A DNA stretch of 64,000 bases from Chloroflexota bacterium. GTDB taxonomy: Bacteria; Chloroflexota; Dehalococcoidia; JABGRK01. Shown in pieces: positions 735 through 20,327 of this stretch. The notes beneath the pieces are model-generated. The model did no database searches. It had not been told where the DNA came from and saw only the letters and a list, made by a program, of their open reading frames with translations. The stretch spans positions 141,969 to 205,968 of the forward strand of contig JABGRK010000009.1 in NCBI GenBank assembly GCA_018648325.1. Direction: 5' to 3'. The position numbers and the translations under genes were made by a program. Every line of letters begins with the position of its first letter. Positions within the stretch are counted from its first letter, which is position 1.

Positions 735-1610
735 TTAACCAATTTCCTCTATGCGATACTCTATCTTGCCCATGGGAGCTTTCACCTGGACTACTTTCCC
801 CTTGGTGCGCCCCACAATTGCCTTGCCTATGGGAGACTCCACAGAAAGCTTGCTTTTTGCCAGATTTGCTTCACTGGGACCTACCAGCGTATAGCACAAT
901 TGCTCACTATGCGTTATATCAAATAAAGTAACTACTGCGCCAAGCTTGATCTTATTGTCACTCTTGCCTTCATCCGCAACAACACCAAGTTTGATAATAG
1001 CTTCTAGCTCCCTTATGCGAGCCTCAACCTGTCCCTGATGATCCTTGGCTGCATCCAGCGGAGCGTTTTCTTTAAAGTCTTTGTCGGCTGCGGCAAGATT
1101 TATGGACTTTGCAATGGCCGGCCGTTCAGCAATAAGCTTTTCCAGCTCGACCTTATGCTCTTCGAGCCCCTGACGAGTAAGGGTGATAGTCTTTTCTTTC
1201 TTACTGCTGGTTTTTAAGGGGCGCTTCTTATTGCTCCGTTTCACTCGCAGATGAACACCAAGGTTGGCTTCGGTTACCTTGATCTTTTTGAGGTAAGCAA
1301 AAAAAGCTTTTACCGGCTGTAGCTTTTGCAATGGATCATTCTGATCGCTGACATGTTCTCCGTAGTTATCAAGCTCCCGTATTTTGATACTGAGAAGCTC
1401 TCTTTTTGCGCCACACCAGCGCACAAACCTGTTTAGATCCTGCTGTCTGGCTTGCTTCTCATCAACCTTAAGTGTTGCTAAGTACTGGGCAATTGCTTCG
1501 CCAATGGTTATGATCTCATCATTCAATGTATCACCCCTATCCTTTAAATTGTAAGCTGCAACGATAATGATGTCAATCAAATCACCTTGCCGAACTAACC
1601 ACTTGCGCAA
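735..1610 (-). CDS. GreA/GreB-family transcription elongation factor with ~170-aa N-terminal extension
   Basis: C-terminal ~110 aa match GreA FKBP-like domain (…KLSVESPIGKAIVGRTKGKVVQVKAPMGKIEYRIEEIG); N-terminal part is lysine-rich and unrecognised. Confidence 0.6.
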   Translation of the reverse strand: MRKWLVRQGDLIDIIIVAAYNLKDRGDTLNDEIITIGEAIAQYLATLKVDEKQARQQDLNRFVRWCGAKRELLSIKIRELDNYGEHVSDQNDPLQKLQPVKAFFAYLKKIKVTEANLGVHLRVKRSNKKRPLKTSSKKEKTITLTRQGLEEHKVELEKLIAERPAIAKSINLAAADKDFKENAPLDAAKDHQGQVEARIRELEAIIKLGVVADEGKSDNKIKLGAVVTLFDITHSEQLCYTLVGPSEANLAKSKLSVESPIGKAIVGRTKGKVVQVKAPMGKIEYRIEEIG

Positions 1611-1939
1611 ATATGCCTACAAGTCAGTACTTTTAACAGGTGCCACAACCACTTGACAAACTATGGAGTCAAGCATAATATGAGCCACAAGACCACGTGG
1701 GACTTAAATAACGCTGTATAGGGGGTGCAAGGTATGAGGCTCCATGCAGTAAAGGGAGTTTGGCAAACTGACAAGTGAGGCCCTGCTTAAATCAGGTAAT
1801 GGCAGGGCGCTTGAAAGACAAAAGACCGGGCCGATTTTAAAAGGCCACTCTCGCTGTAAAAAGCAGAGACCTGATGCGGTGCATTACATCGCAATGCGCT
1901 TGGTCTTGAGTACGCAAATAAAAAACAATTAAAATATGC

Positions 1940-1992
1940 AAAATAAATGGAGGGTTGCTCAAGAAATGGTAGAGCGCCCTCCATTTTTAAAT
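1940..1992 (-). terminator. intrinsic terminator-like hairpin downstream of the minus-strand operon ending at 2010
   Basis: 10-bp inverted repeat AAATGGAGGG…CCCTCCATTT followed by T-run on minus strand; inner GCTC…GAGC stem. Confidence 0.45.
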
Positions 1993-2009: not shown

Positions 2010-2993
2010 CTAACTATCTTTATTGTTTTTTGCTTCAATAGGCAAAGTAAAACTAAAAATACTGCCCTCACCCTCAACACTCTCAACCCATATGCGCCCG
2101 CCATGAGCCTCAACTATTTGCTTTACTATGTAAAGCCCCAGCCCCGTACCCTGCGCCTTGCGCGTAAGCGATCCATCAACTTGATGAAAACGATCAAATA
2201 TACGGCCGATAGCCGATTGAGGAATACCAATGCCATTATCCTCCACATGAACTACTACCTCTGTATCACTTTTATCGGTCTTGACCCTGATAATTCCTTC
2301 ATCATGACTAAACTTAATTGCATTGCTAAGAAGATTAACCATAACCTGTTTTATACGTATCTTGTCGGCGGGCACCTGCAATTGTGACGTCATCTGCTCG
2401 TTATTAATAGTTATTCTTTTCTGCAACGCAAGATTGCTTAGTTCATGCACAGCATCGGAAACTAGCTCGTCAATGAGTTCAGTGCTCTTATCAATTTGAA
2501 ATCCGCCCGCCTCAAGACGCTGAATATCGATTAAATCGTTGATAAGCATAACAAGGTGCTCGCTCTGCTTGTCAATGATGCCCAAAAACTCCATCTGCCT
2601 TTCAGCCATTGCCTCAAGCAGCGCCGACTGGGACTTCGGCGGCGTACGGTTTATCTCATCAGCAAGCAATATGTTAGTGAAAATAGGCCCTTTCATAAGC
2701 TCAAACTTGTTTTCTTTCTGCTTCCAAATCCGTGTACCGATGATATCGGCGGGAAGAATGTCAGGAGTAAACTGAATTCTAGTGTGGTGACAGCCAATGG
2801 TTTTAGCAAGAGCCTTAACCAGCAGTGTTTTGCCAACGCCAGGGTAGTCCTCCAGCAGTACATGTCCATTAGCGATACCAGCAGCCAGCAGTTTTTTCAG
2901 AAGCTGCATGTTGCCGACAAAAACACTGCTTACTTCATCCATTATGTTCTGGCATAAAGTAGCAGCCCCATCTATATGATCATTTTTCTTCAT
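2010..2993 (-). CDS. chimeric protein: truncated MoxR-like AAA+ ATPase N-terminus (Walker A/B only) fused to HisKA-helix + HATPase_c histidine kinase catalytic domain
   Basis: N-term …GHVLLEDYPGVGKTLLVKALAKTIGCHHTRIQFTPDILPADIIGT…ILLADEINRTPPKSQSALLEAM typical of MoxR; C-term …LINDLIDIQRLEAGG… then N/G1/G2 boxes (…LLSNAIKFS…VEDNGIGIP…GTGLGLYIVK…). Confidence 0.7.
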   Translation of the reverse strand: MKKNDHIDGAATLCQNIMDEVSSVFVGNMQLLKKLLAAGIANGHVLLEDYPGVGKTLLVKALAKTIGCHHTRIQFTPDILPADIIGTRIWKQKENKFELMKGPIFTNILLADEINRTPPKSQSALLEAMAERQMEFLGIIDKQSEHLVMLINDLIDIQRLEAGGFQIDKSTELIDELVSDAVHELSNLALQKRITINNEQMTSQLQVPADKIRIKQVMVNLLSNAIKFSHDEGIIRVKTDKSDTEVVVHVEDNGIGIPQSAIGRIFDRFHQVDGSLTRKAQGTGLGLYIVKQIVEAHGGRIWVESVEGEGSIFSFTLPIEAKNNKDS

Positions 2994-3025
2994 TATTTAA
3001 CATTACCCCCTTAACAAGCACTCAG

Positions 3026-4339
3026 CTAGCCCATTTGAATATGGCGCTCAGAAAGTGCATTCATTATATTTTTGAGTATCTGATCGCGATTTTGACGGTT
3101 GCGATCTCTTATAAGATTACGCGCTCTGGTGAAAGAAAACATTGGTATGTTGTCATCACGATACTCGGACATAGGATGAAGCAACTCGCTGATCTCTTCT
3201 ACCGACAGTCCGTTGTCGTGCATAAGTGTGACCAGATATACCAACAATTGATCCTTGTGAGAACGCTCTATAAAATCCGCCTGCACGTTCAGAGCGTAGT
3301 TGAAATCAGAGTCGGTCTGTTTTTCTACCTGTTGCAAGTGTTTTTTCCAGGATGTGTATTTCAAATGAATAGAATATGTATCGCTGATTCTGCCACGTAT
3401 TCCATCATACATGCGCCACACAACAAAGCAAAACGTAGCCCACTCAATAAGCGCTGTGGACCAGGAAGCCATGTTAAACAAGAACGGCCTTAGGAATACA
3501 ATGTAAGCACCTATAACCGCACCAATAACAAACAGCCTCACCTTGGAATTGGATAACCAGCGGCAGATCTCCGATATAAAGGCATCTTCGAAATTTCTGC
3601 CATAGTGAGCAAGTATGCCCAGTACAGAAGTCAGCATCCCTGCAAGTATTACCCAGGCCACACCGGTTATTTCAATCCAAATGTTGGAAAAGGAGTAAAG
3701 CACAACAAATATCCCAAACCCCACCAGCGCTGTGACCACCGCCAACGTAAGCGCCCTCCACCTGTATATCCCGGCACCAACTTCGTGGATCAAGGGAACG
3801 GACTTATAAATGGTAACTGCTGCTATGCCCAATACTATATAAACACGGTTTGCAACAATGCTACGCAGAAACTCCAGCATGTCAGCTATACTTGCTGCCC
3901 CGCCGCTGCCTAAGTAATAGCTCACCATGACTTCCATCTGCGCAGATCTGCCAAGCATTATATAAACAAAAACACCGACCGCAGTACCGGTAAACAGGCG
4001 ATAGCAGTAAGCATCCAAAGGTTTGGGAACAAAGATATGCGAAAGCCGGGCAACAATAACTACCTGCAACGAAGCTACCAGCGGCAGGGTCATATATCTC
4101 AATTCAGGAAAGTAATTCTGTCGCCAGAAGATTGCATAGACCACAACCGACAGGATGGTATAAACCATAATCCTGATAAGGTCAGCGCCAGTACTTTCGC
4201 GCTGCGACCAGCCCGTGGGCTTGCCTCCTGCCTGAGCCTCTAATGAATCAACAGCATCATTGCCACGCAAAGACTGCATATACGTATAAAGAGCAAGGGG
4301 AATGCCAATCCCAAACAGCAGCCATATTATAAGTGCCAC
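3026..4339 (-). CDS. polytopic membrane protein (~8-10 TM) with ~130-aa hydrophilic C-terminal domain; GTG start directly after stop of upstream gene
   Basis: 437-aa ORF, multiple hydrophobic segments; translationally coupled to giant surface-protein gene. Confidence 0.55.
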   Translation of the reverse strand: MALIIWLLFGIGIPLALYTYMQSLRGNDAVDSLEAQAGGKPTGWSQRESTGADLIRIMVYTILSVVVYAIFWRQNYFPELRYMTLPLVASLQVVIVARLSHIFVPKPLDAYCYRLFTGTAVGVFVYIMLGRSAQMEVMVSYYLGSGGAASIADMLEFLRSIVANRVYIVLGIAAVTIYKSVPLIHEVGAGIYRWRALTLAVVTALVGFGIFVVLYSFSNIWIEITGVAWVILAGMLTSVLGILAHYGRNFEDAFISEICRWLSNSKVRLFVIGAVIGAYIVFLRPFLFNMASWSTALIEWATFCFVVWRMYDGIRGRISDTYSIHLKYTSWKKHLQQVEKQTDSDFNYALNVQADFIERSHKDQLLVYLVTLMHDNGLSVEEISELLHPMSEYRDDNIPMFSFTRARNLIRDRNRQNRDQILKNIMNALSERHIQMG

Positions 4340-7228
4340 TTAAGCTCCCTCTATATGTTCTAAAACAGGCCTGTAGACGTTTAGCATATCTATAAAGCTC
4401 TCTCTTGTAAAGTCATGAGAGCTATAGAGGGCCTCTTCGCAGAATGTAATAAACCTATCCAGCTTCCTCTGGTCGATATCTTTGAGTGATGCGACAATTA
4501 CACTCTCGATTTCTCTAGGTGTAGACTTCCTGCTTATATAAATGTCCCTATGCCTTGAGGCATTGACTGCCGAATCAAAGAGGCTGACAGCCTCCTCGCG
4601 ATAGTCAACTATTTTTATTGCCCTGCTATCATTTGACGGAGCATATTTCCCATCCCCATTAAAGAAGCACGTAACGTTATAGATGCCCTGCACTTTAAAG
4701 CGGCACATATATACGTCGGTACCATGTCCGTCCGTAATAATTTCACTTATTCTGTTGTCATTTGCCAACACCTCAATAGAGCGTGTGGCGACAGGCTCAC
4801 TCGCGATATCAGTGAGTTTACATACGATTTTGAGTTTTTCGTTTGTCCCCCATATTCCCTCAAGCGGTGCTGCGACATAAGGAAACTGCACTTCCATACG
4901 AGTGACTATAAGATTTGGGTTGTACTGCCTGGCAGGTTTCTCTGGCATTTCCGGTATTTCGGAAACCAATACCTCTTGAAGCGCAACAGTGTTCTGGGTC
5001 GCTGCCATAACATATGCGGCCCTGCGCCTTGAGCGAATAAAGAGATAGGCAACATATGCGGCCACAAGCGCCCCAAGTGCGACTAGAATCCACAGCACCC
5101 ATCCCATATAATCCTGGGCAGTCGCAGGGGCGCTAAGGTCTGCGCCATAATTCCGCTGGCCAATCTGCATATTAAAAACGGTTTGAGCAGGTGTATACAA
5201 CTCCGAACCATCAAATACAGCAGTAATGGTATAGTCACCGGAATTTGAGAAAAGATGCTCACTCATCTTAAAATTACCACCCAAATTGGTTAGAACCGGT
5301 TCATATTCAATTTCACTGCCATCAAAATCAATGATGACCCTAACCGGTACCTGTCTAACAGGGGATTGATCACCAGTGAGTATGTTACCCCGTATCTTTA
5401 TATCATCAAACTCGGTGGCGGTTTCAGGCATCTGGTCATCGAATGCAATCACGGATTGGGCCATAACGATAAAAGTGATGTTTTCATTGGATCCCCAAAA
5501 ATAGCCGGTTTGCTGAAAGTCTGACTGAAATTCCCAATATCCTTCTTCATCAAATTCATGGTTAATAAGAATTATGCCATCTGCATCGGTGTTCTGAAGT
5601 GGATAACCATGATGAGCTATACCCATTGATGTACTATAATCAATGCTCTGTCCGGCAACAGGATTGCCCTCTACATCACGCAACTCCACCTCAATAGACA
5701 CTTCATCCCCTGTCATGTGCGGTGCCGGCGAAGTTACAACTACACTTATGCGGGTAGGCATCATAACAACCATATCGGTACTGACACTGGTCGGCAGATA
5801 ATCAGACGTGCCAAGAAAAAAGGCCGTTGCGGTGTAATTTCCAACTCCCGAAAAGCCGTCCACCCAAGTGTAACTATAGCGGCCTTTCACATCTGTGATA
5901 GTTTGTACACGCATATCAGGATCGCTCACTGGAAAGACCATCTGTAGTTCAGTATGTGGGATGGGATCGCCATTAATGTCTTCGAGTACACCACCAAGAG
6001 TTACGGCGCGCTCAAACATGAAACTTCCAGAATAATCGGTTGTCAAAGAGCCAAGCGGGATGGATGCTACTGCATCTTCAAACCACAAATCTACGCTAAC
6101 ATTAGATTCAAAAGAATAGCCATATAAAGGATTATATGACCTGACAGTACCCTGAAGGCCAATTGAATAGGGCAGAGAATATGCCCCATCGGAGTCGGTT
6201 AACATCAGCACCTGCGGGAAAAAGGCACGCTGGTCCAGCAACAAATCAACTGTAAGCCCGTCAAACGGATCACCGCCATAAGTGGTAATTGTTCCTCTAA
6301 GATCAAATGTTGTAGATAATATAAACTGACCCAGCCCATTGGTTGTCAACTGGGCAAATACTACCATCCCCTCACCATCGTCTATCATAAGGTCAATGGT
6401 CTGCCCTGTTATTGGCTGACCCAGGGCATCGGTAAGAACGCCGGCAATATTAATAACATCATCTAGCACAAAGCCACCGCTTGCATCTGTAACTACCTGT
6501 GCAGAAATTGACTTGCTGCACAGATGAATATACACCGATTGGTTTATTAGAGGATCACCAAACTCATCCAACAAAAAGCCCTCATATGTAACAGGGTTGA
6601 GTGCATCAATTACACTTTCAGAATCAAGAGTAAGAGCAGAATCGATACGCGTCTCAATAACAGCCACAGCGTTAGAGCCTGCCAAATAAAGAGCGCTCCG
6701 TTGTTCAAATTCTGTTTTGACCCCGAATATATTAAAATCTTCAAACGTATATGTAAAGCTGTAGCTTCCATTCAAATTTGTGGTAAATGTGCCAATATAG
6801 TCGCCATTGATACTCAGATATATCGTCTGGTCGGCTATCGGGTCGCCCGACACCGTTTCCGTAAGAAAGCCTTCAATAACAACTTCCTCATTTATTAGGG
6901 CATACTGCGGCATATTTATAGTGAGTGTGGTTGGAGTAAGCACCATTACTTGATAAGAGTTATCGGCAGCGGGCGGATATAAGTTGGCACCGGCAAACGA
7001 GGCGGTGATCTCATAATCGCCGGAAGCATTAAACGTATGCACCAGAAAAAAGCGCCCTTTATCGTCAGTTACAACCTGTACATCGGGACTGCCGTCGTCA
7101 ACATGAATATTAACGGTGTAACCCACCAGGTCATTACCGAACTCGTCATGCATCGCCCCCCCCAATATCACAGGGTCCGTACGCAAGCGGCTGATTGCTA
7201 ACAAAAAGAACAATGGTGGGAGGACCAT
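4340..7228 (-). CDS. C-terminal portion (962 aa) of giant repeat surface protein: Ig-like repeats, one TM helix, ~250-aa C-terminal tail
   Basis: repeat units homologous to those of 7146..10508 (…EFGNDL…DGSPD…); frame differs from upstream ORF by a G8 tract. Confidence 0.65.
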   Translation of the reverse strand: MVLPPLFFLLAISRLRTDPVILGGAMHDEFGNDLVGYTVNIHVDDGSPDVQVVTDDKGRFFLVHTFNASGDYEITASFAGANLYPPAADNSYQVMVLTPTTLTINMPQYALINEEVVIEGFLTETVSGDPIADQTIYLSINGDYIGTFTTNLNGSYSFTYTFEDFNIFGVKTEFEQRSALYLAGSNAVAVIETRIDSALTLDSESVIDALNPVTYEGFLLDEFGDPLINQSVYIHLCSKSISAQVVTDASGGFVLDDVINIAGVLTDALGQPITGQTIDLMIDDGEGMVVFAQLTTNGLGQFILSTTFDLRGTITTYGGDPFDGLTVDLLLDQRAFFPQVLMLTDSDGAYSLPYSIGLQGTVRSYNPLYGYSFESNVSVDLWFEDAVASIPLGSLTTDYSGSFMFERAVTLGGVLEDINGDPIPHTELQMVFPVSDPDMRVQTITDVKGRYSYTWVDGFSGVGNYTATAFFLGTSDYLPTSVSTDMVVMMPTRISVVVTSPAPHMTGDEVSIEVELRDVEGNPVAGQSIDYSTSMGIAHHGYPLQNTDADGIILINHEFDEEGYWEFQSDFQQTGYFWGSNENITFIVMAQSVIAFDDQMPETATEFDDIKIRGNILTGDQSPVRQVPVRVIIDFDGSEIEYEPVLTNLGGNFKMSEHLFSNSGDYTITAVFDGSELYTPAQTVFNMQIGQRNYGADLSAPATAQDYMGWVLWILVALGALVAAYVAYLFIRSRRRAAYVMAATQNTVALQEVLVSEIPEMPEKPARQYNPNLIVTRMEVQFPYVAAPLEGIWGTNEKLKIVCKLTDIASEPVATRSIEVLANDNRISEIITDGHGTDVYMCRFKVQGIYNVTCFFNGDGKYAPSNDSRAIKIVDYREEAVSLFDSAVNASRHRDIYISRKSTPREIESVIVASLKDIDQRKLDRFITFCEEALYSSHDFTRESFIDMLNVYRPVLEHIEGA

Positions 7229-10200
7229 ACACCCGTATCACATCAGATGCTGAGTTAGACTTATAATAATCATTTTCGGTAAAAACGGCGTATACAGTAC
7301 GATCGCCGGAGTCAGTAAATGTGTGATCGTAAGTATAGCTGCCATCTCCTAAAATTTCCACATTGCCGCTGATAAGCGTTACTCCATCAAACAGGGATAA
7401 GCTTTGCCCTGCCAGCGGGATGCCATCTATATCATGTAGAGTACCATTGATAGTAATCTGAGTATTTACTTTTGCCTCTTCAGGAACGTTAACAGTAAGC
7501 TGGGTCGGCATTATTATTTTGATAATGTCAGAAGAACTTGTTCCGGGATAAAGCGCCGTTCCTATAAAACTAGCTGTTACAGTATAATCGCCTACATCAG
7601 CAAACGTATGCTCCCATACAAATAGTCCGCCTGCGCCCGTCACAAACGGAACATCGGGGCTACCATCTGAGAAATGAATTACAACCGGTTGGCCCTCTAG
7701 ATCGTTGCCGAACTCCTCATACATATGAATTCTGATAGTAACAGGCTGATCATATATATCTACTCTTGGGATCAGGATAATGTCTATAAACGGCGGACCA
7801 TACACACGTACATCAGCAACCGGTTCGCTGCGAGCCTCCTTATAGAAGTTAGCATTATCAACAGCGAATTTTGCAAATACATCGTAATCGCCCGAGCGTA
7901 CAAACTTATAATCAACTTCGTAGCTTCCATCAGACTGTGTAGTTGTCTGTGTAAGAACCTCATCACCGTTCATTATGTAAACCGTTGTACCCGCAAGAGG
8001 ATCACCCCAGTCATCCAGCAAAGAGCCTTCCATTGTAAGCGTTGTAGCCTGTTTGATTTCGATTGGCAGCGCGTTCATGGTTATACTGGTGGGCATCCAC
8101 ACAGTTACATCTACGCTGCTCTCAACACCGGGCATATAAGGGTCTATACCATCAAAAGCAGCACTTATTGTACGCTGCCCAACAGACAAGTATTGGATAG
8201 GGACCTCCAAAATACCCTGATTATCTGTTAGCAGATTGCCAATATTAACTGAATTTCCATTGCGAATGGAGTAAAAATGTATTATTTCCCCACTCACAGG
8301 TTCATCAAATTCGTCTATTAAGGTAGCTTTTATGAGATTCCCTCTCTCCTCATCATTGTCAATCACTCCATTATTATTTCTATCCAGAGATACATCTACG
8401 TTTTCATCTATCTCAAGTGTGAGAGTAGGCGGACCATACACGCGTATATCCTGCTCAAACCTTGAGGAATTGAACAATCCAAAAGTCGGGTCTTCATCCG
8501 GGAGGTAACCAAATATCCCGCCACCATCGTACACCACGCTGATGGTAAACTCGCCACGCTGATCAAACGTGCGATCCAACGTAAACTTCCCAGTGGGAAG
8601 CGTTACAACCTGTCCGATCAGAAGGGGTATCGTAGTGGCTCCCGTACGATTATAATAAATTCGCACTGTGCGGCCACCCATCTGCCTGCGAAGGATATCC
8701 TCAAGGGTGCCCTCAATCGTCCACGGGGCACCCAGCTTTATCTTTTCAGGCAGATTGTCAATAGAAAGAAGTGTATCTATAGTAACCTTTGTATCAGCGA
8801 TTTCGCTCACAGGCTTATGAAATTCATTGCCACTAAAAGATGCTTCAACGCTATAGTTTCCCTGAACACCAAAAACGTAGGGTAATACAAAGTCGCCACT
8901 TGGCAAAGTGGTAGTAGAAAGAGTGCTCAGTGTTGCGCCACTGTCTATATTTACTATTTCAATATCGACCGTTACCCCTGCTATAGGATTATCGGGGTAG
9001 ATTGCATCATGCAGATTGCCTGATATAATAAAAACATCGCCCACCTTGGCATCTTCAGACATTTTCGGTACAATCTCAGATTCCGTGGTAATGATTACAT
9101 CAGGATCACTATCCGATCCCAGCAGGAACGGCTGCAGACCCACCGCTTGCGCAATAATGTGCCAGTTGCCTGCCGTCATATCAATAGGCACATCGCACTC
9201 AATGTTATAGCCATCGCTTCCAACCACTCCCAATGCTACAAAAGAGGCTGGCTTGTTCGGCATCCCGTTAACAAATTCGGGCTTATCACTATCACCTCCC
9301 TGCCAGAGCCATATCCTTACAGGCATACTAGGCACGGTGATACCCTCAACGGTCGTTACATTGCCGATCACATAAAACGGCTGGTCTTTCTCTATTATAA
9401 TTCCTTCAAGAATGGGGGTTTCGGGATCATACTCAGGATTGCTCTGGATACTCCAGATATCGGTTATCGTCTCAACGGCTATATTATTTACATCTTTAAT
9501 CGGCATACTGTTGTAAACAATCCAACCAAGTTCCTCAAAACCTACCTCGGCCAGATAAATCGTCTGAACAGCGCTTACCGTCTGCTCTTCATCAGTAGGT
9601 GCAATCCAATATCCCGATGTCAGCCTTGCCGGTATGCCCGCGCAACGGGCCAATATCACATATGCCGATGCAAAGTGGTTTGAAAGACCCTGCCTCTCCT
9701 CAAACAAAAACCAGTCGGTTGCTTCCTCCCCACTAGGAAGAGCTGCCATATTTTCCCGCGAAAACTCGTAGTTTTCCAGTAAATACGTCTCTATGGCTTT
9801 CGATTTTTCGTAGGGGGACTCATAATCCGCAGTTATCTCAAGGGACAGTGCTTTAGTACGCGATGATATATTACCAGGCAGTTGCAGATACCTGGTGTCA
9901 TCAAGAACCTCTGCCTCAATGAGCACCTCATCATCAAAGTAGTAGTGTGTGGCAGTAAACTCGTAGGCCTCGGATGTACTCTGCTGCACCCAAAAGGACC
10001 CCGCCTCCGGATACAACATTATGGGATCGGGATGCGTAAGCTGTCTGGTATGAAGCGAAGTTGGAATAAACTGAGCAGGGAACTGTAAAAGCGGTGTGAT
10101 CGTAATTGTGTCTGTTGCCATATTCGAGTAGTTGCTCACATCAGCAGCGGGAAGCGTTTCGCCACGATAACTTCGCGGCTTATCATTTATGTCTTTTGCC

Positions 10201-10508
10201 CAAAGATTGCCATTATAGTGCGTTGCAGCAAAGCTTCTTAAGAAAAAAGTACTGCCTGCACCGGAAACAGTAAAAATATCCACATCACCAGGATAGTCCC
10301 CTTTCGGCTCTATCCCATCCCAACCTGCAGGCATGATAGCTGAGGGTTCAATATCCTTATCCCATATAGTATGCAAAATTGCATCTTCGGCCAACGGCGA
10401 TATCAGATTATCCGATATCATCATAAAAAGGCCGACCAGCGATACTAACACCGCCGCACCTACAAACGGAGCCAGAAGTCTCCTTTTGGAGCCAAACATG
10501 TTTCTCAT
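7146..10508 (-). CDS. N-terminal portion (1120 aa) of giant surface protein: signal/anchor, degenerate transglutaminase-like core, ~8 Ig-like/CarboxypepD_reg-like repeats
   Basis: …GLSNHFASAYVILARCAGIPARLTSGYW… resembles Transglut_core but Cys->Ser, His->Thr, Asp->Asn; recurring ~95-aa repeats ending RVYGPP. Confidence 0.7.
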   Translation of the reverse strand: MRNMFGSKRRLLAPFVGAAVLVSLVGLFMMISDNLISPLAEDAILHTIWDKDIEPSAIMPAGWDGIEPKGDYPGDVDIFTVSGAGSTFFLRSFAATHYNGNLWAKDINDKPRSYRGETLPAADVSNYSNMATDTITITPLLQFPAQFIPTSLHTRQLTHPDPIMLYPEAGSFWVQQSTSEAYEFTATHYYFDDEVLIEAEVLDDTRYLQLPGNISSRTKALSLEITADYESPYEKSKAIETYLLENYEFSRENMAALPSGEEATDWFLFEERQGLSNHFASAYVILARCAGIPARLTSGYWIAPTDEEQTVSAVQTIYLAEVGFEELGWIVYNSMPIKDVNNIAVETITDIWSIQSNPEYDPETPILEGIIIEKDQPFYVIGNVTTVEGITVPSMPVRIWLWQGGDSDKPEFVNGMPNKPASFVALGVVGSDGYNIECDVPIDMTAGNWHIIAQAVGLQPFLLGSDSDPDVIITTESEIVPKMSEDAKVGDVFIISGNLHDAIYPDNPIAGVTVDIEIVNIDSGATLSTLSTTTLPSGDFVLPYVFGVQGNYSVEASFSGNEFHKPVSEIADTKVTIDTLLSIDNLPEKIKLGAPWTIEGTLEDILRRQMGGRTVRIYYNRTGATTIPLLIGQVVTLPTGKFTLDRTFDQRGEFTISVVYDGGGIFGYLPDEDPTFGLFNSSRFEQDIRVYGPPTLTLEIDENVDVSLDRNNNGVIDNDEERGNLIKATLIDEFDEPVSGEIIHFYSIRNGNSVNIGNLLTDNQGILEVPIQYLSVGQRTISAAFDGIDPYMPGVESSVDVTVWMPTSITMNALPIEIKQATTLTMEGSLLDDWGDPLAGTTVYIMNGDEVLTQTTTQSDGSYEVDYKFVRSGDYDVFAKFAVDNANFYKEARSEPVADVRVYGPPFIDIILIPRVDIYDQPVTIRIHMYEEFGNDLEGQPVVIHFSDGSPDVPFVTGAGGLFVWEHTFADVGDYTVTASFIGTALYPGTSSSDIIKIIMPTQLTVNVPEEAKVNTQITINGTLHDIDGIPLAGQSLSLFDGVTLISGNVEILGDGSYTYDHTFTDSGDRTVYAVFTENDYYKSNSASDVIRVYGPPTIVLFVSNQPLAYGPCDIGGGDA
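7156..7163 (-). repeat. poly-G(8) homopolymer on coding strand at the frame junction of the giant protein
   Basis: …catcgcccccccc aat… ; with 7 G the two ORFs fuse into one ~2,050-aa protein (…PCDIGGAMHDEF…). Confidence 0.8.
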
Positions 10509-10789
10509 ACAACCACCGTGCAGGATACTTTGTTGCCGATTGTATTATCAATAGGTTTCATATCTCTAATAAACCTTATATCTTTACCAGTTAATCAAAC
10601 GCCACTTTGGGCCTGATTGCTCCATACTGTCTATATTAATATATACGCTGAAAGTGTCAATAATGTTCACCCCAAAGCAAGTAACAGTTTCCTCACAGTT
10701 TGTTAAGATATTGTTAAGACCCTCTAATTACTTTTAACGATAGCTACGTTAAAATGTCAGATGGCAAATATTTTCATATGCTACAATTT

Positions 10790-12055: not shown

Positions 12056-12502
12056 ATGATGAAGAAACGATTTTTTGTACTTACTTTAATCACGGTTCTA
12101 GCGATGGTTATGGCAAGCGCTATTGGTTGTGGTAGCAGCAATACGCAGGATACGCCGGAAAGCACAGTGAGGCTATGGTTGAAGGCATATGAATCCAAAA
12201 ATGCGACAGCACTTGTTAATCTTGGAACAGAAGGATTTAAAACGTTGACATATCCCCAAGAACCCGAGGACTATTGGGAAGGCAGATGGGGTTATAATAT
12301 ATTTTCAATGTCATCTATTAGTGTGACAATTACAGACCAAGACGAAACTACGGCAGAAGCTACCGCTTCATGCAATATTGTCGTAAGACTATCAGATGGT
12401 AGTATACAATATCAAGGTGGTACGACATGGGATTTTTCTCTGGTAAAAACCGCTGACAAATGGAGAGTATCCGCGGATGTGTGGCCACAACAAACCGGGT
12501 AA
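12056..12502 (+). CDS. lipoprotein of unknown function (paralog B)
   Basis: MMKKRFFVLTLITVLAMVMASAIGCGS lipobox; paralog of 11296..11727. Confidence 0.6.
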   Translation: MMKKRFFVLTLITVLAMVMASAIGCGSSNTQDTPESTVRLWLKAYESKNATALVNLGTEGFKTLTYPQEPEDYWEGRWGYNIFSMSSISVTITDQDETTAEATASCNIVVRLSDGSIQYQGGTTWDFSLVKTADKWRVSADVWPQQTG

Positions 12503-12528
12503 GTTATAGAGATACTAGAACCAAGGAG

Positions 12529-13917
12529 ATGTTGATGCCAACTAAAAATGAGCTAAAGAAAAAAGTCTGCGAGGAAATTGAGCGCAGGGCAGATGAGATA
12601 ATCGCCGCGGCAAAGGCAATCGCGAACAACGCCGAGACTGGCTTTCGCGAGGTCGAAACCGCCAAGCTGGTAGCGCAAACGTTTACCAGAGCGGGAATCG
12701 AGTATAGGGACGGGCTAGCGATTACCGGCGTAAAAGGCATGCTAAACGGAAACGGCGCTGGTCCCACCGTGGCGGTGCTGGGTGAGCTGGATGCACTGAC
12801 CATACCCGACCATCCGCAGGCACATCCGGAAACGGGGGCAGCACACGCCTGCGGTCACAACGGACAGATAGGCATGCTGCTGGGGGTGGCGCTGGGACTC
12901 AAAGGATCAGGTGTTCTATCATCACTTAGCGGCAACATAGCCCTGATGGCCGTACCCGCCGAAGAGTACATCGAGATCGAATACCGCAACGGACTGCGTC
13001 AAGAGGGCAAACTGTCGTTTCTGGGAGGCAAGCCGGAGCTTATCAAGCTGGGTGAGTTCGACGATGTAGATATGGCCATAATGGCGCACAACGGCACAAT
13101 CAAGGAAGGCCGTGTCAGTGGCGCCCGTGGTGGCAGCAGCAACGGCACAGTGGCCAAACAGATCGAGTTTATTGGACGTAGCGCTCATGCCGGAGCAGCG
13201 CCGGAAAAAGGAATAAACGCCCTGAATGCAGCCAACATAGCGCTTGCCGCCATACATGCGCAGCGCGAAACGTTCAAGGACGCTGACACCGTGCGGGTGC
13301 ATCCCATCATCACCAAGGGCGGTCAGTCGGTAAACGCCGTGCCCGCCGATGTGCGCATGGAAACATTCGTGCGGGGCAAAACTATCGAAGCTATAACAGA
13401 TGCCAACGCCAAGGTAGACAGGGCGCTGCGTGCGGGAGCAATGGCAGTGGGTGCCAAGGTACGCATCACCACCCTGCCGGGATATATGCCGATGACGGCC
13501 AACCCTGAGTTGCGCGATCTTTTCAGGGATAACGCCGTATCGCTGCTGGGAGAGGACAAGGTAATACCGATAGACCCAACAGCCCACGCGGCAGGATCAA
13601 CTGACCTTGGCGATCTGGGCCACATAATGCCGGTGATATGCGGCTTTGCCGCCGGAGCCATCGGAACTGCCCACGGCAACGACTTTATAATGGAGGACTA
13701 CACGCTGGCGGTGATCAATCCGGCCAAGATCATGGCGATGATGATTATCGACCTGCTTGCCGACGGGGCGTCCTGCGCAAAAGACGTGCTTGCCAAAAAC
13801 AAACCTCCTATGACCAAAGCGCAGTATCTTGAATCGATGGAGGCTTTGCTCAAGGTAGAGGAGTATGGGGACGATAGCGAGGACAATCCCCCTGAACAGG
13901 CTGGCGTTATATTATAA
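12529..13917 (+). CDS. M20D-family amidohydrolase/peptidase (AbgB/HipO-like)
   Basis: …AHACGHNGQIGMLLG… metal-binding motif; RBS AAGGAG before ATG at 12529. Confidence 0.8.
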   Translation: MLMPTKNELKKKVCEEIERRADEIIAAAKAIANNAETGFREVETAKLVAQTFTRAGIEYRDGLAITGVKGMLNGNGAGPTVAVLGELDALTIPDHPQAHPETGAAHACGHNGQIGMLLGVALGLKGSGVLSSLSGNIALMAVPAEEYIEIEYRNGLRQEGKLSFLGGKPELIKLGEFDDVDMAIMAHNGTIKEGRVSGARGGSSNGTVAKQIEFIGRSAHAGAAPEKGINALNAANIALAAIHAQRETFKDADTVRVHPIITKGGQSVNAVPADVRMETFVRGKTIEAITDANAKVDRALRAGAMAVGAKVRITTLPGYMPMTANPELRDLFRDNAVSLLGEDKVIPIDPTAHAAGSTDLGDLGHIMPVICGFAAGAIGTAHGNDFIMEDYTLAVINPAKIMAMMIIDLLADGASCAKDVLAKNKPPMTKAQYLESMEALLKVEEYGDDSEDNPPEQAGVIL

Positions 13918-18515: not shown

Positions 18516-20327
18516 ATGCCTATAATTCTGGCGTTGTTCTTAACATTTACTATGTTTGCAAGTAATTGTTCAACGTCATGCAACAGCATTACAGCTGTTG
18601 AAATCACTTCCAACGCATGGGAACGGTTTAATCCTTTGCCACAAGGTAATGATCTCCGCGCTGTCTGGGGCACTTCATCATCGGATGTGTACGCTGTGGG
18701 TTGGGCAGGTACCATAGTTCATTATGACGGCAACAACTGGGATGTGATGATAAGCGGCACAACAGAAGATCTTACCGGCATCTGGGGCAGTTCATCATCC
18801 GATGTGTACGCAGTAGGTGGAGAAGGAACCATACGGCACTATGATGGCAGCACATGGTCTCCAATGAATAGTGGCACCACAGAACCACTTTCTGATATTT
18901 GGGGCACTTCATCATCCAATATCTACGCAGTGGGTTGGGACGGAACTATTCAGCACTATAACGGTAGCCGGTGGACTCCCGTAAAAATTGCCGGTACATT
19001 GATCGGTAAATATGATTTTAGCTGCACTCCTTATCTCTTAAATCCAATTGATGAGGTTTGGGGCAGCTCAGAATCTGATGTGTTCATTGCGACTTCGCAT
19101 ACCATACTGCATTTTGACGGCAACGCATGGACTGAGATGGATAGCAGTCTTACAGCTGCACTTAATGATGTTTGGGGCAGTTCTTCCACCGATGTCTTTG
19201 CCGCAGGCTATAACGGTATTATCCATTATGACGGCAACGCATGGACTTCAATGGATAGTGGCAATACAGAGACCATTTATGGAATCTGGGGTAGTTCATC
19301 ATCCGATGTCTACGCCATAGGTACAGGTAGCGCTATCCTGCACTATGACGGAATCAGATGGACTGAGGTGTATGGTGATCCCACAGATTACTTGGCTAAT
19401 ATCGCTGATATTTGGGGCAGTTCTTCCGGTGATATCTTTGCCGTAGGAAATCAAGGCACCATTATACATTATGACGGCAACAACTGGGATGTGATGATAA
19501 GTGGTGTTACACTCTACGCAATCTGGGGCAGTTCATCTACCGATGTTTTCGTTACGGGTAGCCATGGCACTATATTGCATTATGATGGCAGCACTTGGGG
19601 TGCGATGGAGAGTGGCACCACAGAACCCCTTTTTGATATTTGGGGCACTTCATCATCCAATGTCTACGCAGTGGGTGGAGACGGAACTATACGGCACTAT
19701 AATGGCAACAAGTGGAATTCAATGTACAGCGGAACAACAAAGTACCTTGCCGGAATCTGGGGCACTTCATCATCCAATGTCTACGCAGTGGGTTGGGACG
19801 AAATTATTCACTATGATGGCAGAACATGGTCTCCGATGCACGATTATACAACAACGGTTAGTTTGGACGCCATATGGGGCAGTTCCTCATCCGATATCTA
19901 CGCAGTGGGTGGGGGACGAAGTCAACATTATAATGGCAGTACCTGGTCCGAGATGGACGATATATACGGGCTTTGGGATATATGGGGCAGTTCATCATCT
20001 GATGTCTTCGCTGTGGGTATATACGGCGGGATTACATACTACGATGGAAACGAGTGGACTACAATGGATATCGTCCAACGTACGGGAGTAGGTAACACTT
20101 GCAATGCAGGTGCAAAGTCGCCAGCTTACGTAAGCGATTTCACTGCGCTCTGGGGCAGTTCATCCACTGATGTTTATGCTGTGGGGGAAAGCGGCATTAT
20201 GCATTACGATGGCATAGAATGGACCACAATAGACAATACGGTGTCGCTTAACGCAATCTGGGGCAGTTCAGCTTCTGATGTCTATGCGATAGCAAACGGT
20301 GGCACTATTCTGCATTTGTCGGAATAG
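18516..20327 (+). CDS. secreted beta-propeller-like repeat protein (~15 x ~38-aa WGSSSSDVYAVG…GTI.HYDG..W repeats; Ycf48/BNR-like)
   Basis: highly regular repeats, also near-identical at DNA level (ggggcagttcatcatccgatgt… recurring). Confidence 0.6.
   Translation: MPIILALFLTFTMFASNCSTSCNSITAVEITSNAWERFNPLPQGNDLRAVWGTSSSDVYAVGWAGTIVHYDGNNWDVMISGTTEDLTGIWGSSSSDVYAVGGEGTIRHYDGSTWSPMNSGTTEPLSDIWGTSSSNIYAVGWDGTIQHYNGSRWTPVKIAGTLIGKYDFSCTPYLLNPIDEVWGSSESDVFIATSHTILHFDGNAWTEMDSSLTAALNDVWGSSSTDVFAAGYNGIIHYDGNAWTSMDSGNTETIYGIWGSSSSDVYAIGTGSAILHYDGIRWTEVYGDPTDYLANIADIWGSSSGDIFAVGNQGTIIHYDGNNWDVMISGVTLYAIWGSSSTDVFVTGSHGTILHYDGSTWGAMESGTTEPLFDIWGTSSSNVYAVGGDGTIRHYNGNKWNSMYSGTTKYLAGIWGTSSSNVYAVGWDEIIHYDGRTWSPMHDYTTTVSLDAIWGSSSSDIYAVGGGRSQHYNGSTWSEMDDIYGLWDIWGSSSSDVFAVGIYGGITYYDGNEWTTMDIVQRTGVGNTCNAGAKSPAYVSDFTALWGSSSTDVYAVGESGIMHYDGIEWTTIDNTVSLNAIWGSSASDVYAIANGGTILHLSE

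What the first reader, a model, noticed from the sequence alone, without database searches (positions are those of the whole stretch)
2010..10508. Operon of a giant transglutaminase-like pseudoenzyme adhesin, a polytopic membrane protein and a MoxR/histidine-kinase chimera
Minus-strand genes are contiguous: the 4340/4339 stop and GTG start are adjacent, and a terminator follows at ~1940-1992. Gene 1 is the ~2,050-aa protein. It has an N-terminal anchor, a transglutaminase-like core in which the canonical Cys-His-Asp appears replaced by Ser-Thr-Asn (GLSNHFASAYVILARCAGIPARLTSGYW … TIYLAEVGFEELGWIVYNS), about 15 Ig-like repeats and a C-terminal TM helix with tail. Gene 2 is an 8-10-TM protein. 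Gene 3 begins as a MoxR AAA+ ATPase (Walker A GVGKT, Walker B LLADEINR). After ~135 aa it switches into a HisKA second helix plus a complete HATPase_c domain and lacks the AAA lid. MoxR, DUF58 and transglutaminase triads are a known conserved module. Here the DUF58/VWA partner is absent and MoxR is fused to a kinase catalytic core, a combination I do not recognise.
Basis: partly seen in the sequence, partly recalled or inferred. Interest (0 to 1): 0.55.

Follow-up and report, generated by a model that had tools for sequence, protein, structure and literature searches.

The report
Deletion scar in a decaying surface-protein operon
The "MoxR/histidine-kinase chimera" is real DNA, but it is a one-off join between two genes that are separate and intact in every relative, sitting in an operon whose giant surface-protein gene is also frameshifted: ordinary gene decay in one marine Chloroflexi population, not a new kind of system.

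Summary
Most of the anatomy is confirmed, with one error. The "~2,050-aa" gene is two overlapping ORFs (1120 and 962 aa) split at a G8 run. Removing one G restores a 2055-aa ORF. Gene 3 is MoxR residues 1-133 (Walker A and B) joined in frame to DHp helix 2 plus the full HATPase_c domain of a histidine kinase. It lacks AAA+ sensor 1, arginine finger, sensor 2 and lid, and the kinase's phospho-acceptor His. The join appears on about 15 contigs from about 12 sample or assembly records, nearly identical in DNA, so it is not an assembly artefact. Nothing else among 5.8 billion proteins or 1.84 billion cluster representatives shares this junction. Six orthologous operons read giant protein, membrane protein, intact 329-aa MoxR; DUF58 follows in the four contigs that reach that far and a small membrane protein in three. 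The closest kinase homologues are intact and sit before GreA and YchF, as the chimera does. One relative continues from the MoxR operon into a type IV pilus cluster, and two kinase loci follow pilM/pilD. The simplest reading is one deletion at an A(A/G)GCAG microhomology. The transglutaminase triad is Ser/Ile/Asn here and Cys/His/Asp(Glu) in 14 homologues. Interest is low.

The parts
7146..10508 (-). Giant-protein ORF 1 (1120 aa). It holds an N-terminal TM anchor (aa 11-29), a TgpA-like transglutaminase core (aa 220-332, window 9513-9851) and the first Ig-like repeats. It ends three codons after the G8 run.
9510..9683 (-). Positions of the transglutaminase catalytic triad, all substituted: Ser276 (TCA, 9681-9683), Ile317 (ATT, 9558-9560) and Asn333 (AAC, 9510-9512). 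All 14 aligned homologues have Cys and His at the first two positions and Asp or Glu at the third.
7156..7163 (-). G8 homopolymer (C8 on the + strand). It is the only G/C run of 8 or more in the window. It shifts the giant gene out of frame inside Ig-like repeat 7, and G7 would restore a 2055-aa ORF. It is G8 in three independent assemblies.
4340..7228 (-). Giant-protein ORF 2 (a 962-aa ORF; gene callers give 937 aa from the ATG just after the G run). It holds the remaining Ig-like repeats, a TM helix (aa 1804-1822 of the repaired protein, window 5042-5098), one more Ig-like unit and a conserved C-terminal tail (TPREIE...LDRF...EEALYSSHDFTR).
3026..4339 (-). Polytopic membrane protein (437 aa). 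It has 8 or more hydrophobic helices and a strongly conserved soluble C-terminal domain of about 130 aa. The family is rare, with 10 proteins found. There is no Pfam or NCBIfam hit for this copy; relatives carry a weak precomputed PF27715 (UCP019236) hit.
2595..2993 (-). MoxR-derived part of the chimera (codons 1-133). It has Walker A (GVGKT), Walker B (LLADE) and helix alpha-3. It is up to 87% identical to intact MoxR proteins of relatives and stops before sensor 1.
2595..2600 (-). Junction. AGG CAG (Arg132-Gln133) is shared with MoxR orthologues (GAA AGG CAG GTA) and resembles AAG CAG at the same point of the kinase homologues. This is a 5/6-nt microhomology.
2010..2594 (-). Kinase-derived part of the chimera (codons 134-327 plus stop). 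It holds DHp helix 2 and a complete HATPase_c domain with N, G1, F and G2 boxes. DHp helix 1 and the H-box His are absent.
1931..1986 (-). Terminator-like hairpin (arms at 1977-1986 and 1945-1954) followed by a U-rich tail, downstream of the chimera's stop codon.
10633..10660 (-). Promoter-like site (TTGACA, 16 nt, TAATAT) about 125 nt upstream of the giant gene's start. This is a consensus match only.
735..1610 (-). GreA-like gene, used as a synteny anchor. In three relatives the intact kinase lies directly upstream of this gene and of ychF, as the chimera does here. One of them, L023, also shows holA.

Best explanation
The locus is a degraded copy of an operon found in a small clade of Chloroflexi. 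In relatives the operon reads: giant transglutaminase/Ig-repeat surface protein, polytopic membrane protein, MoxR AAA+ ATPase, DUF58 protein, small membrane protein.

In this population one illegitimate recombination event joined codon 133 of moxR, in frame, to the start of DHp helix 2 of a histidine-kinase gene. The event was most simply a deletion of roughly 10-15 kb at an A(A/G)GCAG microhomology. The kinase gene lies upstream of greA, at the far end of a neighbouring type IV pilus cluster.

The event removed the C-terminal half of MoxR, DUF58, the small membrane protein, probably the pilus cluster, and the kinase's sensor and phospho-acceptor parts.

The resulting 327-aa ORF keeps the MoxR ribosome-binding site and the kinase's terminator, so it is probably still expressed. 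It can be neither a working AAA+ motor nor a working histidine kinase. It lacks sensor 1, the Arg finger, sensor 2 and the lid on one side, and the His and DHp helix 1 on the other. It is most likely a tolerated relic.

The giant gene has separately gained one G in a G run, which splits it. Its transglutaminase domain had already lost Cys/His/Asp.

Shown: the anatomy, the uniqueness of the join, its reality across assemblies, and intact separate genes in relatives. Inferred: that the two neighbourhoods were contiguous, the size of the deletion, and the loss of function.
For: - **Breakpoint.** Pfam, NCBIfam and the alignments all place it at Q133/M134.
- **Reality of the join.** About 15 contigs from about 12 sample or assembly records carry it, built with at least three contig-naming styles (k141_, NODE_, Logan). 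Searches give exact copies and one search gives the one-SNP variant. Ten of the loci were compared with the window and are 100% or 99.98% identical in DNA. A 6-nt microhomology cannot mislead an assembler.
- **Uniqueness.** In 5.8 billion proteins, every other hit covers only the MoxR half or only the kinase half. In 1.84 billion representatives the score falls from 714 to 335 bits.
- **Other chimeras are unrelated.** The only other AAA_3 plus HATPase_c proteins, P0084 and P0245, are singletons on single contigs. Their junctions differ.
- **Orthologous operons.** Six (L009, L010, L014, L017, L018, L019) have a normal MoxR that continues ...ERQVTIEG...ATQNP. DUF58 follows where the contig reaches (L009, L010, L014, L018) and a small membrane protein in L009, L010 and L018.
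- **Kinase synteny.** The closest kinase homologues (59-64% identity) are intact and lie before greA and ychF(-), as the chimera does; L023 also shows holA.
- **Same genome.** L017 (intact MoxR operon) and L012 (intact kinase next to greA) come from one MAG.
- **Pilus bridge.** In L018 the operon is followed by HTH, a response regulator and the PilB N-terminus. In L011 and L012 the kinase is preceded by pilM/pilD. These genes are orthologous to one pilus cluster in L020 and L021 that also holds this kinase family.
- **Junction DNA.** It shows AGGCAG against AAGCAG.
- **Structure model.** AlphaFold gives pLDDT 85-95 for the kinase ATP-binding domain and 37-58 for the truncated AAA half.
- **Population variant.** The only SNP in 6.8 kb between two variants is G298A, at an invariant Gly of the kinase 'HGG' motif.
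- **Giant gene.** G8 is present in three assemblies. G7 gives 2055 aa without stops, and the L019 orthologue is uninterrupted across the equivalent region.
Against: - No single contig from a relative spans the MoxR operon, the pilus cluster, the kinase and greA. Contiguity is pieced together from several lineages.
- In L010 the operon is followed by marR-type genes, not pilus genes.
- In L020 and L021 the kinase sits at the start of the pilus cluster, not at its end.
- The rest of this genome could not be searched. DUF58, the pilus genes or a reciprocal junction may exist elsewhere.
- The chimera's ORF is intact, has a good Shine-Dalgarno sequence and keeps all ATP-binding motifs of both halves. 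It is carried by a widely sampled population, so some function cannot be excluded.
- There is almost no sequence diversity, so selection cannot be measured.
- The AlphaFold alignment was shallow and mixed two families.
Confidence: 0.8

Rival explanations
1. The fusion is a functional new gene. Its product would be an expressed protein that uses the kinase ATP-binding domain, and perhaps the MoxR P-loop fragment, in a new regulatory role for the giant protein and the membrane protein. In this reading it replaces MoxR/DUF58.
For: - The ORF is intact and in frame, with a Shine-Dalgarno sequence and a terminator.
- All N, G1, F and G2 boxes and Walker A and B are kept.
- It is present in every sampled member of a widespread population.
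- Two other sporadic MoxR-HATPase_c chimeras exist.
Against: - There is no diverged homologue with this junction in 5.8 billion or 1.84 billion proteins.
- The other two chimeras are singletons with different junctions.
- The AAA+ core is cut after the Walker B strand and helix alpha-3. Sensor 1, the Arg finger and the lid are missing, and the fragment is modelled with low confidence.
- There is no phospho-acceptor His.
- The only known variant changes an invariant Gly.
- An in-frame outcome is expected in one of three random deletions.
Confidence: 0.07
2. The junction was made by a rearrangement other than a simple deletion, such as an inversion, a translocation or insertion of the operon next to the kinase. 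In that case DUF58, the small membrane protein, the pilus genes and perhaps a reciprocal kinase-N/MoxR-C gene survive elsewhere in the genome.
For: - Contiguity of the two neighbourhoods is only inferred.
- L010 shows that the operon's downstream neighbours vary.
- Only 64 kb of the genome could be searched.
Against: - The L018 and L011/L012 ends fit one pilus cluster, which makes a single deletion the most economical event.
- No trace of the missing parts is in the window.
Confidence: 0.1
3. The chimera and the frameshift are artefacts: assembly chimerism, and a homopolymer sequencing error.
For: All the data are metagenomic, and homopolymers are error-prone on some platforms.
Against: - The same junction occurs on about 15 contigs from about 12 sample or assembly records, built with MEGAHIT-, SPAdes- and Logan-style assemblers.
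- The same G8 occurs in the three independent assemblies that cover it.
- The loci compared are identical in DNA over up to 13 kb.
- The microhomology is only 6 nt.
Confidence: 0.02
4. The G8 run is a working switch. It would act through phase variation or transcriptional or translational slippage, so that full-length 2055-aa protein is still made in part of the population or at a low level.
For: - It is the longest G/C homopolymer in the window and sits exactly at the frame change.
- Both halves are otherwise free of stops, and the C-terminal tail keeps all conserved residues.
- Surface proteins are typical targets of such switches (general knowledge).
Against: - G8 is fixed in all three assemblies that cover it.
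- About one G/C run of this length is expected by chance in 64 kb.
- The partner genes MoxR and DUF58 are destroyed in the same operon.
Confidence: 0.12

Closest known systems
MoxR (MRP subfamily) / DUF58 / transglutaminase-like (TgpA-type) gene module, for example the P. aeruginosa PA2875-PA2872 operon that contains tgpA
   Same: The best solved-structure match of the transglutaminase core is TgpA (6g49, E 1.5e-8). The orthologous operons contain MoxR and DUF58 next to the transglutaminase-domain membrane protein. The tgpA operon and its conserved Cys/His/Asp triad are described in PMC3507681.
   Different: Here the transglutaminase domain heads a protein of about 2055 aa with 15 Ig-like repeats, and the gene order is transglutaminase first. 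An extra polytopic membrane protein from a rare family is inserted. In this genome the triad is Ser/Ile/Asn, MoxR is truncated and DUF58 is gone. That PA2875 and PA2874 are MoxR and DUF58 rests on my own recollection. The paper text I read does not say so.
PFNA cluster of bifidobacteria (pkb2, fn3, aaa-atp, duf58, tgm)
   Same: It combines a repeat-rich surface protein (FN3), a MoxR-family ATPase, a DUF58 protein and a membrane transglutaminase-like protein. It even includes a protein kinase, which phosphorylates the MoxR (PMC8430577, PMC12067865).
   Different: In PFNA the kinase is a separate Ser/Thr kinase, not a fused histidine-kinase fragment. The FN3 protein and the transglutaminase are separate genes. 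There is no homologue of the polytopic membrane protein. No sequence comparison with PFNA proteins was made here.
HisKA-type sensor histidine kinases of Chloroflexi type IV pilus clusters (PAS or receiver domain, then HisKA, then HATPase_c)
   Same: The C-terminal 194 aa are 53-64% identical to these kinases and sit in the same position before greA.
   Different: The sensor or receiver domains, DHp helix 1 and the phospho-acceptor His are missing.
Sporadic MoxR-HATPase_c chimeras P0084 and P0245
   Same: Both have AAA_3 followed by HATPase_c in one ORF.
   Different: Their junctions differ: after MoxR residue ~184 in P0245 and ~247 in P0084, against 133 here. The linker regions are not homologous. 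Each is a single sequence on a single short contig. They do not form a family with the window's protein.

Membership tests
MoxR AAA+ ATPase (Pfam AAA_3 plus AAA_lid_2) | Walker A (GxxGxGKT) and Walker B (hhhhDE) | tested here: met
   GVGKT and LLADE are present. AAA_3 profile positions 1-99 match at E 1e-41.
MoxR AAA+ ATPase (Pfam AAA_3 plus AAA_lid_2) | Complete AAA+ core (sensor 1 'ATQNP', Arg finger) and the C-terminal lid with sensor 2 | tested here: not met
   The AAA_3 match stops at profile position 99 of 131, and there is no AAA_lid_2 hit. Alignment to five intact MoxR proteins diverges after Q133.
HisKA-type histidine kinase | DHp helix 1 with the phospho-acceptor His (H-box, SHELRTP) | tested here: not met
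   HisKA matches only profile positions 23-66 of 66. The H-box region of the homologues has no counterpart.
HisKA-type histidine kinase | Catalytic ATP-binding domain with N, G1, F and G2 boxes | tested here: met
   HATPase_c positions 2-110 of 111 match at E 1.6e-32. NLLSNAIKF, DNGIGI, FDRF and GTGLGL are conserved. pLDDT is 85-95.
Transglutaminase-like superfamily (Pfam Transglut_core, TgpA type) | Sequence match to the core domain | tested here: met
   E 4.4e-17 against a cut-off of 23 bits. TgpA 6g49 matches at E 1.5e-8.
Transglutaminase-like superfamily (Pfam Transglut_core, TgpA type) | Cys-His-Asp catalytic triad | tested here: not met
   The window has Ser276, Ile317 and Asn333. All 14 aligned homologues have Cys, His and Asp or Glu. 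The TgpA Cys aligns to Ser.
MoxR/DUF58/transglutaminase module | A DUF58 gene adjacent to moxR | tested here: not met
   No DUF58 is in the 64-kb window. It is present in the orthologous operons L009, L010, L014 and L018.
Conserved domain fusion (a real protein family) | The same junction in diverged lineages | tested here: not met
   Only a 90% cluster of two sequences that differ by one residue was found. There is no other full-length match.
Phase-variable contingency locus | Homopolymer length varies between samples or reads | tested here: inconclusive
   The consensus is G8 in the three assemblies that cover the site. Read-level data are not available.

The most novel reading that the evidence does not exclude
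The 327-aa MoxR(1-133)/DHp-helix-2/HATPase_c protein is an expressed, selectively kept new gene in a widespread marine Chloroflexi population. In the same reading, the G8 run is a slippage switch that still allows some full-length, catalytically dead transglutaminase/Ig surface protein to be made. The locus would then be a rewired system rather than a decaying one.
Probability: 0.06. Interest if true: 0.55.

Novelty: new member of a known kind. Interest (0 to 1): 0.17.

Why it matters
The main value is as a caution. A striking "novel domain fusion" turns out to be a deletion scar once orthologous loci are compared. Public annotations of it ("AAA domain-containing protein", "signal transduction histidine kinase") are misleading.

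It also records gene loss in an abundant, near-clonal, uncultured Chloroflexi population. That population has lost a MoxR/DUF58 chaperone pair and probably a type IV pilus cluster, and its giant surface-protein gene is interrupted.

The intact operon in relatives is itself uncharacterised. It combines a giant transglutaminase/Ig protein, a rare polytopic membrane protein, MoxR, DUF58 and a small membrane protein. It is the better target for anyone interested in what MoxR/DUF58/transglutaminase modules do.

Tried and rejected
- **Assembly artefact.** Rejected. The junction and the G8 run are identical in independent assemblies and samples.
- **Paralogous recombination within the window.** There is no second MoxR or kinase copy, no DUF58 and no pilus gene in the 64 kb.
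- **Conserved fusion family.** Two exhaustive protein searches found none. P0084 and P0245 looked promising but are singletons with different junctions.
- **Function of the membrane protein.** Pfam and NCBIfam gave nothing significant. Its AlphaFold model was too poor for a fold search (mean pLDDT 56, conserved C-terminal domain 30-45), so none was run.
- **DUF4129 in the giant protein's tail.** There is no Pfam hit even at E of 1 or less. The resemblance (TPRE...ALYS) is from memory only.
- **Structured RNAs and tRNAs.** None were found in the window.
- **A contig bridging the MoxR operon and the kinase in a relative.** The metagenome and genome scans returned only short contigs.
- **Measuring selection.** This was not possible. 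The population variants differ by one SNP in 6.8 kb.
- **Sample metadata.** A literature search on the accession numbers found nothing.

Full report
**What is at the coordinates**

Four minus-strand ORFs, not three, fill 2010-10508. They are 7146..10508 (1120 aa), 4340..7228 (962 aa), 3026..4339 (437 aa) and 2010..2993 (327 aa).

The first two are in different frames and overlap at ATTGGGGGGGGCGATG. This G8 run (window 7156-7163) is the only G/C homopolymer of 8 or more in the window. About one is expected by chance. Removing one G gives a single 2055-aa ORF with no internal stop.

The other details hold:
- The stop at 4340 abuts the GTG at 4339, with GAGGGAG upstream.
- Gene 3 has AAGGGGG upstream of its ATG.
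- A hairpin with a U-rich tail lies at 1945-1986. The 113-nt stretch that contains it folds at -27.2 kcal/mol (z -2.66). The consensus scanner missed it because of its long loop.

**Gene 3**

Pfam gives AAA_3 profile positions 1-99 of 131 (aa 44-142). It then gives HisKA positions 23-66 of 66 (aa 125-163) and a complete HATPase_c domain (aa 210-320). NCBIfam kinase models all begin to match at aa 123-148, most of them at about 130-135.

Aligned to intact MoxR proteins, the sequence is conserved up to ...LLEAMAERQ133 and unrelated afterwards. The MoxR proteins continue VTIEG...ATQNP... into sensor 1, the Arg finger and the lid. Aligned to histidine kinases, homology starts at E135-F-L, the beginning of DHp helix 2. 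The H-box (SHELRTP) and helix 1 have no counterpart.

The product therefore has Walker A and B but lacks the rest of the AAA+ core and the lid. It has a complete kinase ATP-binding domain but no phospho-acceptor His.

AlphaFold, run on a 30-sequence mixed alignment, models the kinase ATP-binding domain at pLDDT 85-95. It models the MoxR fragment at 37-58. This is weak evidence, but it agrees that half an AAA+ core does not fold on its own.

**Real, but unique**

The exact protein is encoded on 12 contigs read, of which nine places were shown. These come from JGI, NCBI (GCA_018671315.1, a Chloroflexi MAG), ENA and Logan records. A further metagenome contig also carries it (L013). The contig names show MEGAHIT-, SPAdes- and Logan-style assemblies.

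Ten of these loci were compared with the window. Eight are 100% identical in DNA over up to 12,993 bp. A second variant, P0350 on three contigs, differs by one nucleotide in 6.8 kb. That change is G298A, at a Gly invariant in the kinase homologues. An assembly artefact is therefore excluded.

No other lineage has this protein:
- In the 5.8-billion-protein search the score falls from 714 to 257 bits. Every other hit covers about 40% (a 326-329-aa MoxR with lid) or about 60% (a PAS or receiver domain with HisKA and HATPase_c) of the query.
- In the exhaustive search of 1.84 billion representatives, the next hits are long multi-kinase proteins.
- Two other AAA_3 plus HATPase_c proteins surfaced, P0084 and P0245. 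Their junctions lie elsewhere (after MoxR residues ~247 and ~184), and their linkers are not homologous. Each is one sequence on one short contig.

These are sporadic chimeras between two very abundant families, not a family.

**What relatives look like**

The gene 2 family has only 10 members in the database, and it marks the orthologous operons. Six of them (L009, L010, L014, L017, L018, L019) read giant Ig-repeat protein, 445-451-aa membrane protein, intact MoxR. Where the contig continues, DUF58 (404-437 aa; L009, L010, L014, L018) and a small membrane protein (303-314 aa; L009, L010, L018) follow.

The closest homologues of the kinase half are P0003, P0006 and P0014, at 59-64% identity. 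They are complete kinases lying directly before a GreA-like gene and ychF on the other strand. L023 also shows holA. This is exactly the chimera's downstream neighbourhood.

So each half of the chimera sits in its own ancestral neighbourhood, and the join is between them. L017 (intact MoxR operon) and L012 (intact kinase next to greA) even come from the same MAG, CSMAG_962.

**How the join probably arose**

Three observations link the two neighbourhoods through a type IV pilus cluster:
- In L018 the operon is followed by an HTH gene, a response regulator and the MshEN N-terminus of a PilB-type ATPase.
- In L011 and L012 the kinase is preceded by pilM and a prepilin peptidase.
- In the more distant L020 and L021 these genes, and this kinase family, belong to one pilus cluster. 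The L018 response regulator is 60% identical to the L020 one, the PilB N-terminus 51%, and the L011 PilM 35%.

The simplest reconstruction is: operon, HTH, response regulator, pilB ... pilM, pilD, kinase, greA. A single deletion from moxR codon 133 to the kinase's DHp loop would then produce the window's arrangement.

At the DNA level the chimera reads GAA AGG CAG | ATG GAG TTT. MoxR orthologues read GAA AGG CAG GTA, and kinase homologues read AAG CAG GAT GAA TTC. This is a 5/6-nt microhomology, typical of illegitimate recombination.

This step is inferred. No single contig spans the whole arrangement, and L010 has different downstream genes. In L020 and L021 the kinase sits at the other end of the cluster. 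None of the missing genes is in the window, and the rest of the genome could not be searched.

**The giant gene**

The repaired protein has these features:
- TM helices at aa 11-29 and 1804-1822, and 15 Ig-like repeat units, 14 outside and one after the second helix.
- Big_1, Big_3_5 and CarboxypepD_reg matches.
- A C-terminal tail whose last ~100 residues are strongly conserved among seven orthologues.

The frameshift lies inside repeat 7. The L019 orthologue is an uninterrupted 1258-aa partial ORF across the equivalent region. G8 is present in all three independent assemblies that cover the site.

The transglutaminase core matches Pfam at E 4e-17 and TgpA of P. aeruginosa (6g49) at E 1.5e-8. 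In an alignment with 14 homologues, all of them have Cys, His and Asp or Glu. These include P0122, which shares the transglutaminase plus Ig architecture. The window has Ser276 (TCA), Ile317 (ATT) and Asn333 (AAC).

These codons need at least five nucleotide changes from Cys/His/Asp codons, whereas the 6.2-kb gene has a single disruption. The catalytically dead state is therefore older than the frameshift and evolved while the ORF was still maintained. The "adhesin" role is inference from architecture only.

**Gene 2**

It has eight strongly hydrophobic segments and a highly conserved soluble C-terminal domain. There is no significant Pfam or NCBIfam match. The AlphaFold model was too poor to use. 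Its function stays unknown. Its fixed position between the giant gene and moxR suggests it works with them.

**Comparison with what is known**

The intact operon is a variant of the MoxR (MRP)/DUF58/transglutaminase module. TgpA is the closest solved relative of the transglutaminase core, and its operon and triad are described in PMC3507681.

The bifidobacterial PFNA cluster (pkb2, fn3, aaa-atp, duf58, tgm) is the closest described system. It adds a repeat-rich surface protein and a kinase that acts on MoxR (PMC8430577, PMC12067865).

The window's copy fails the defining tests of each family it resembles:
- The AAA+ core is incomplete.
- There is no phospho-acceptor His.
- There is no catalytic triad.
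- There is no DUF58.

**Verdict**

The chimera, however, is a lineage-specific recombination scar in an operon that is being lost. It is not a new signalling or chaperone architecture.

The residual novel reading is a retained new gene plus a slippage switch at G8. I put it at about 6%.

Interest is low (0.17). The intact operon of the relatives, with its rare membrane protein, is the more interesting object, and it is still only a variant of a known module.

Noticed in passing
window 2100-2102 (codon 298 of the chimera); L024:4731: The only nucleotide difference in 6.8 kb between two population variants is GGC to GCC (G298A). It falls in the kinase 'HGG' motif, at a Gly invariant in all aligned kinase homologues. 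This fits relaxed constraint, but it is a single event.
   Followed up: yes
P0245 (365 aa, NCBI contig of 4.9 kb) and P0084 / L022:2122-3234: Two further MoxR-HATPase_c chimeras exist, each a singleton, with junctions at different MoxR positions (~184 and ~247). P0245, like the window's protein, joins at the start of DHp helix 2. L022 also carries a DUF4129 gene upstream.
   Followed up: partly
window 2640-2660 (ADEINRTP) compared with the kinase H-box: The MoxR Walker-B segment ADEINRTPPK resembles the kinase H-box SHELRTPL by chance. Aligners therefore extend kinase matches into the MoxR half (for example, and P0337). This can make the chimera look like it has a degenerate H-box, but no His is present.
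   Followed up: partly
window 12460-13917 (+): The M20-family peptidase gene has GC of 0.55-0.57, against 0.40-0.47 in the surrounding DNA. It may have been acquired from elsewhere.
   Followed up: no
window 735-1610 (-); L011:3688-4479, L012:2287-3078, L023:1583-2374: The GreA-like protein is long: a 291-aa ORF here and 263 aa in relatives. The GreA_GreB_N and GreA_GreB domains occupy only aa 143-290, so an N-terminal extension of about 100-140 aa has no family match.
   Followed up: no
L018:6299-7267; L011:354-2144; L020:6304-16884; L021:8531-14793: In this Chloroflexi group the kinase family that donated the chimera's C-terminal half is part of type IV pilus clusters. These read HTH, pilin, kinase, response regulator, PilB, PilC ... 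PilM/N. The position of the kinase within the cluster differs between lineages.
   Followed up: partly
L012:745-996: There is weak similarity to a response-regulator receiver domain (26% over 86 aa) between pilD and the 275-aa kinase P0006. That kinase may be a shortened form of the receiver-kinase seen in P0014.
   Followed up: no
window 18516-20327 (+) and 47476-50016 (-): A 603-aa ORF has no Pfam match. An 846-aa solute-binding protein (SBP_bac_5) carries an unusual N-terminal FN3/purple-acid-phosphatase-N-like domain.
   Followed up: no
window 7140-7165 (-): The ATG that gene callers use for the second half of the giant gene lies 2 nt after the G8 run. The run itself could act as a Shine-Dalgarno-like element for re-initiation. 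The 937-aa product would lack a signal sequence.
   Followed up: no
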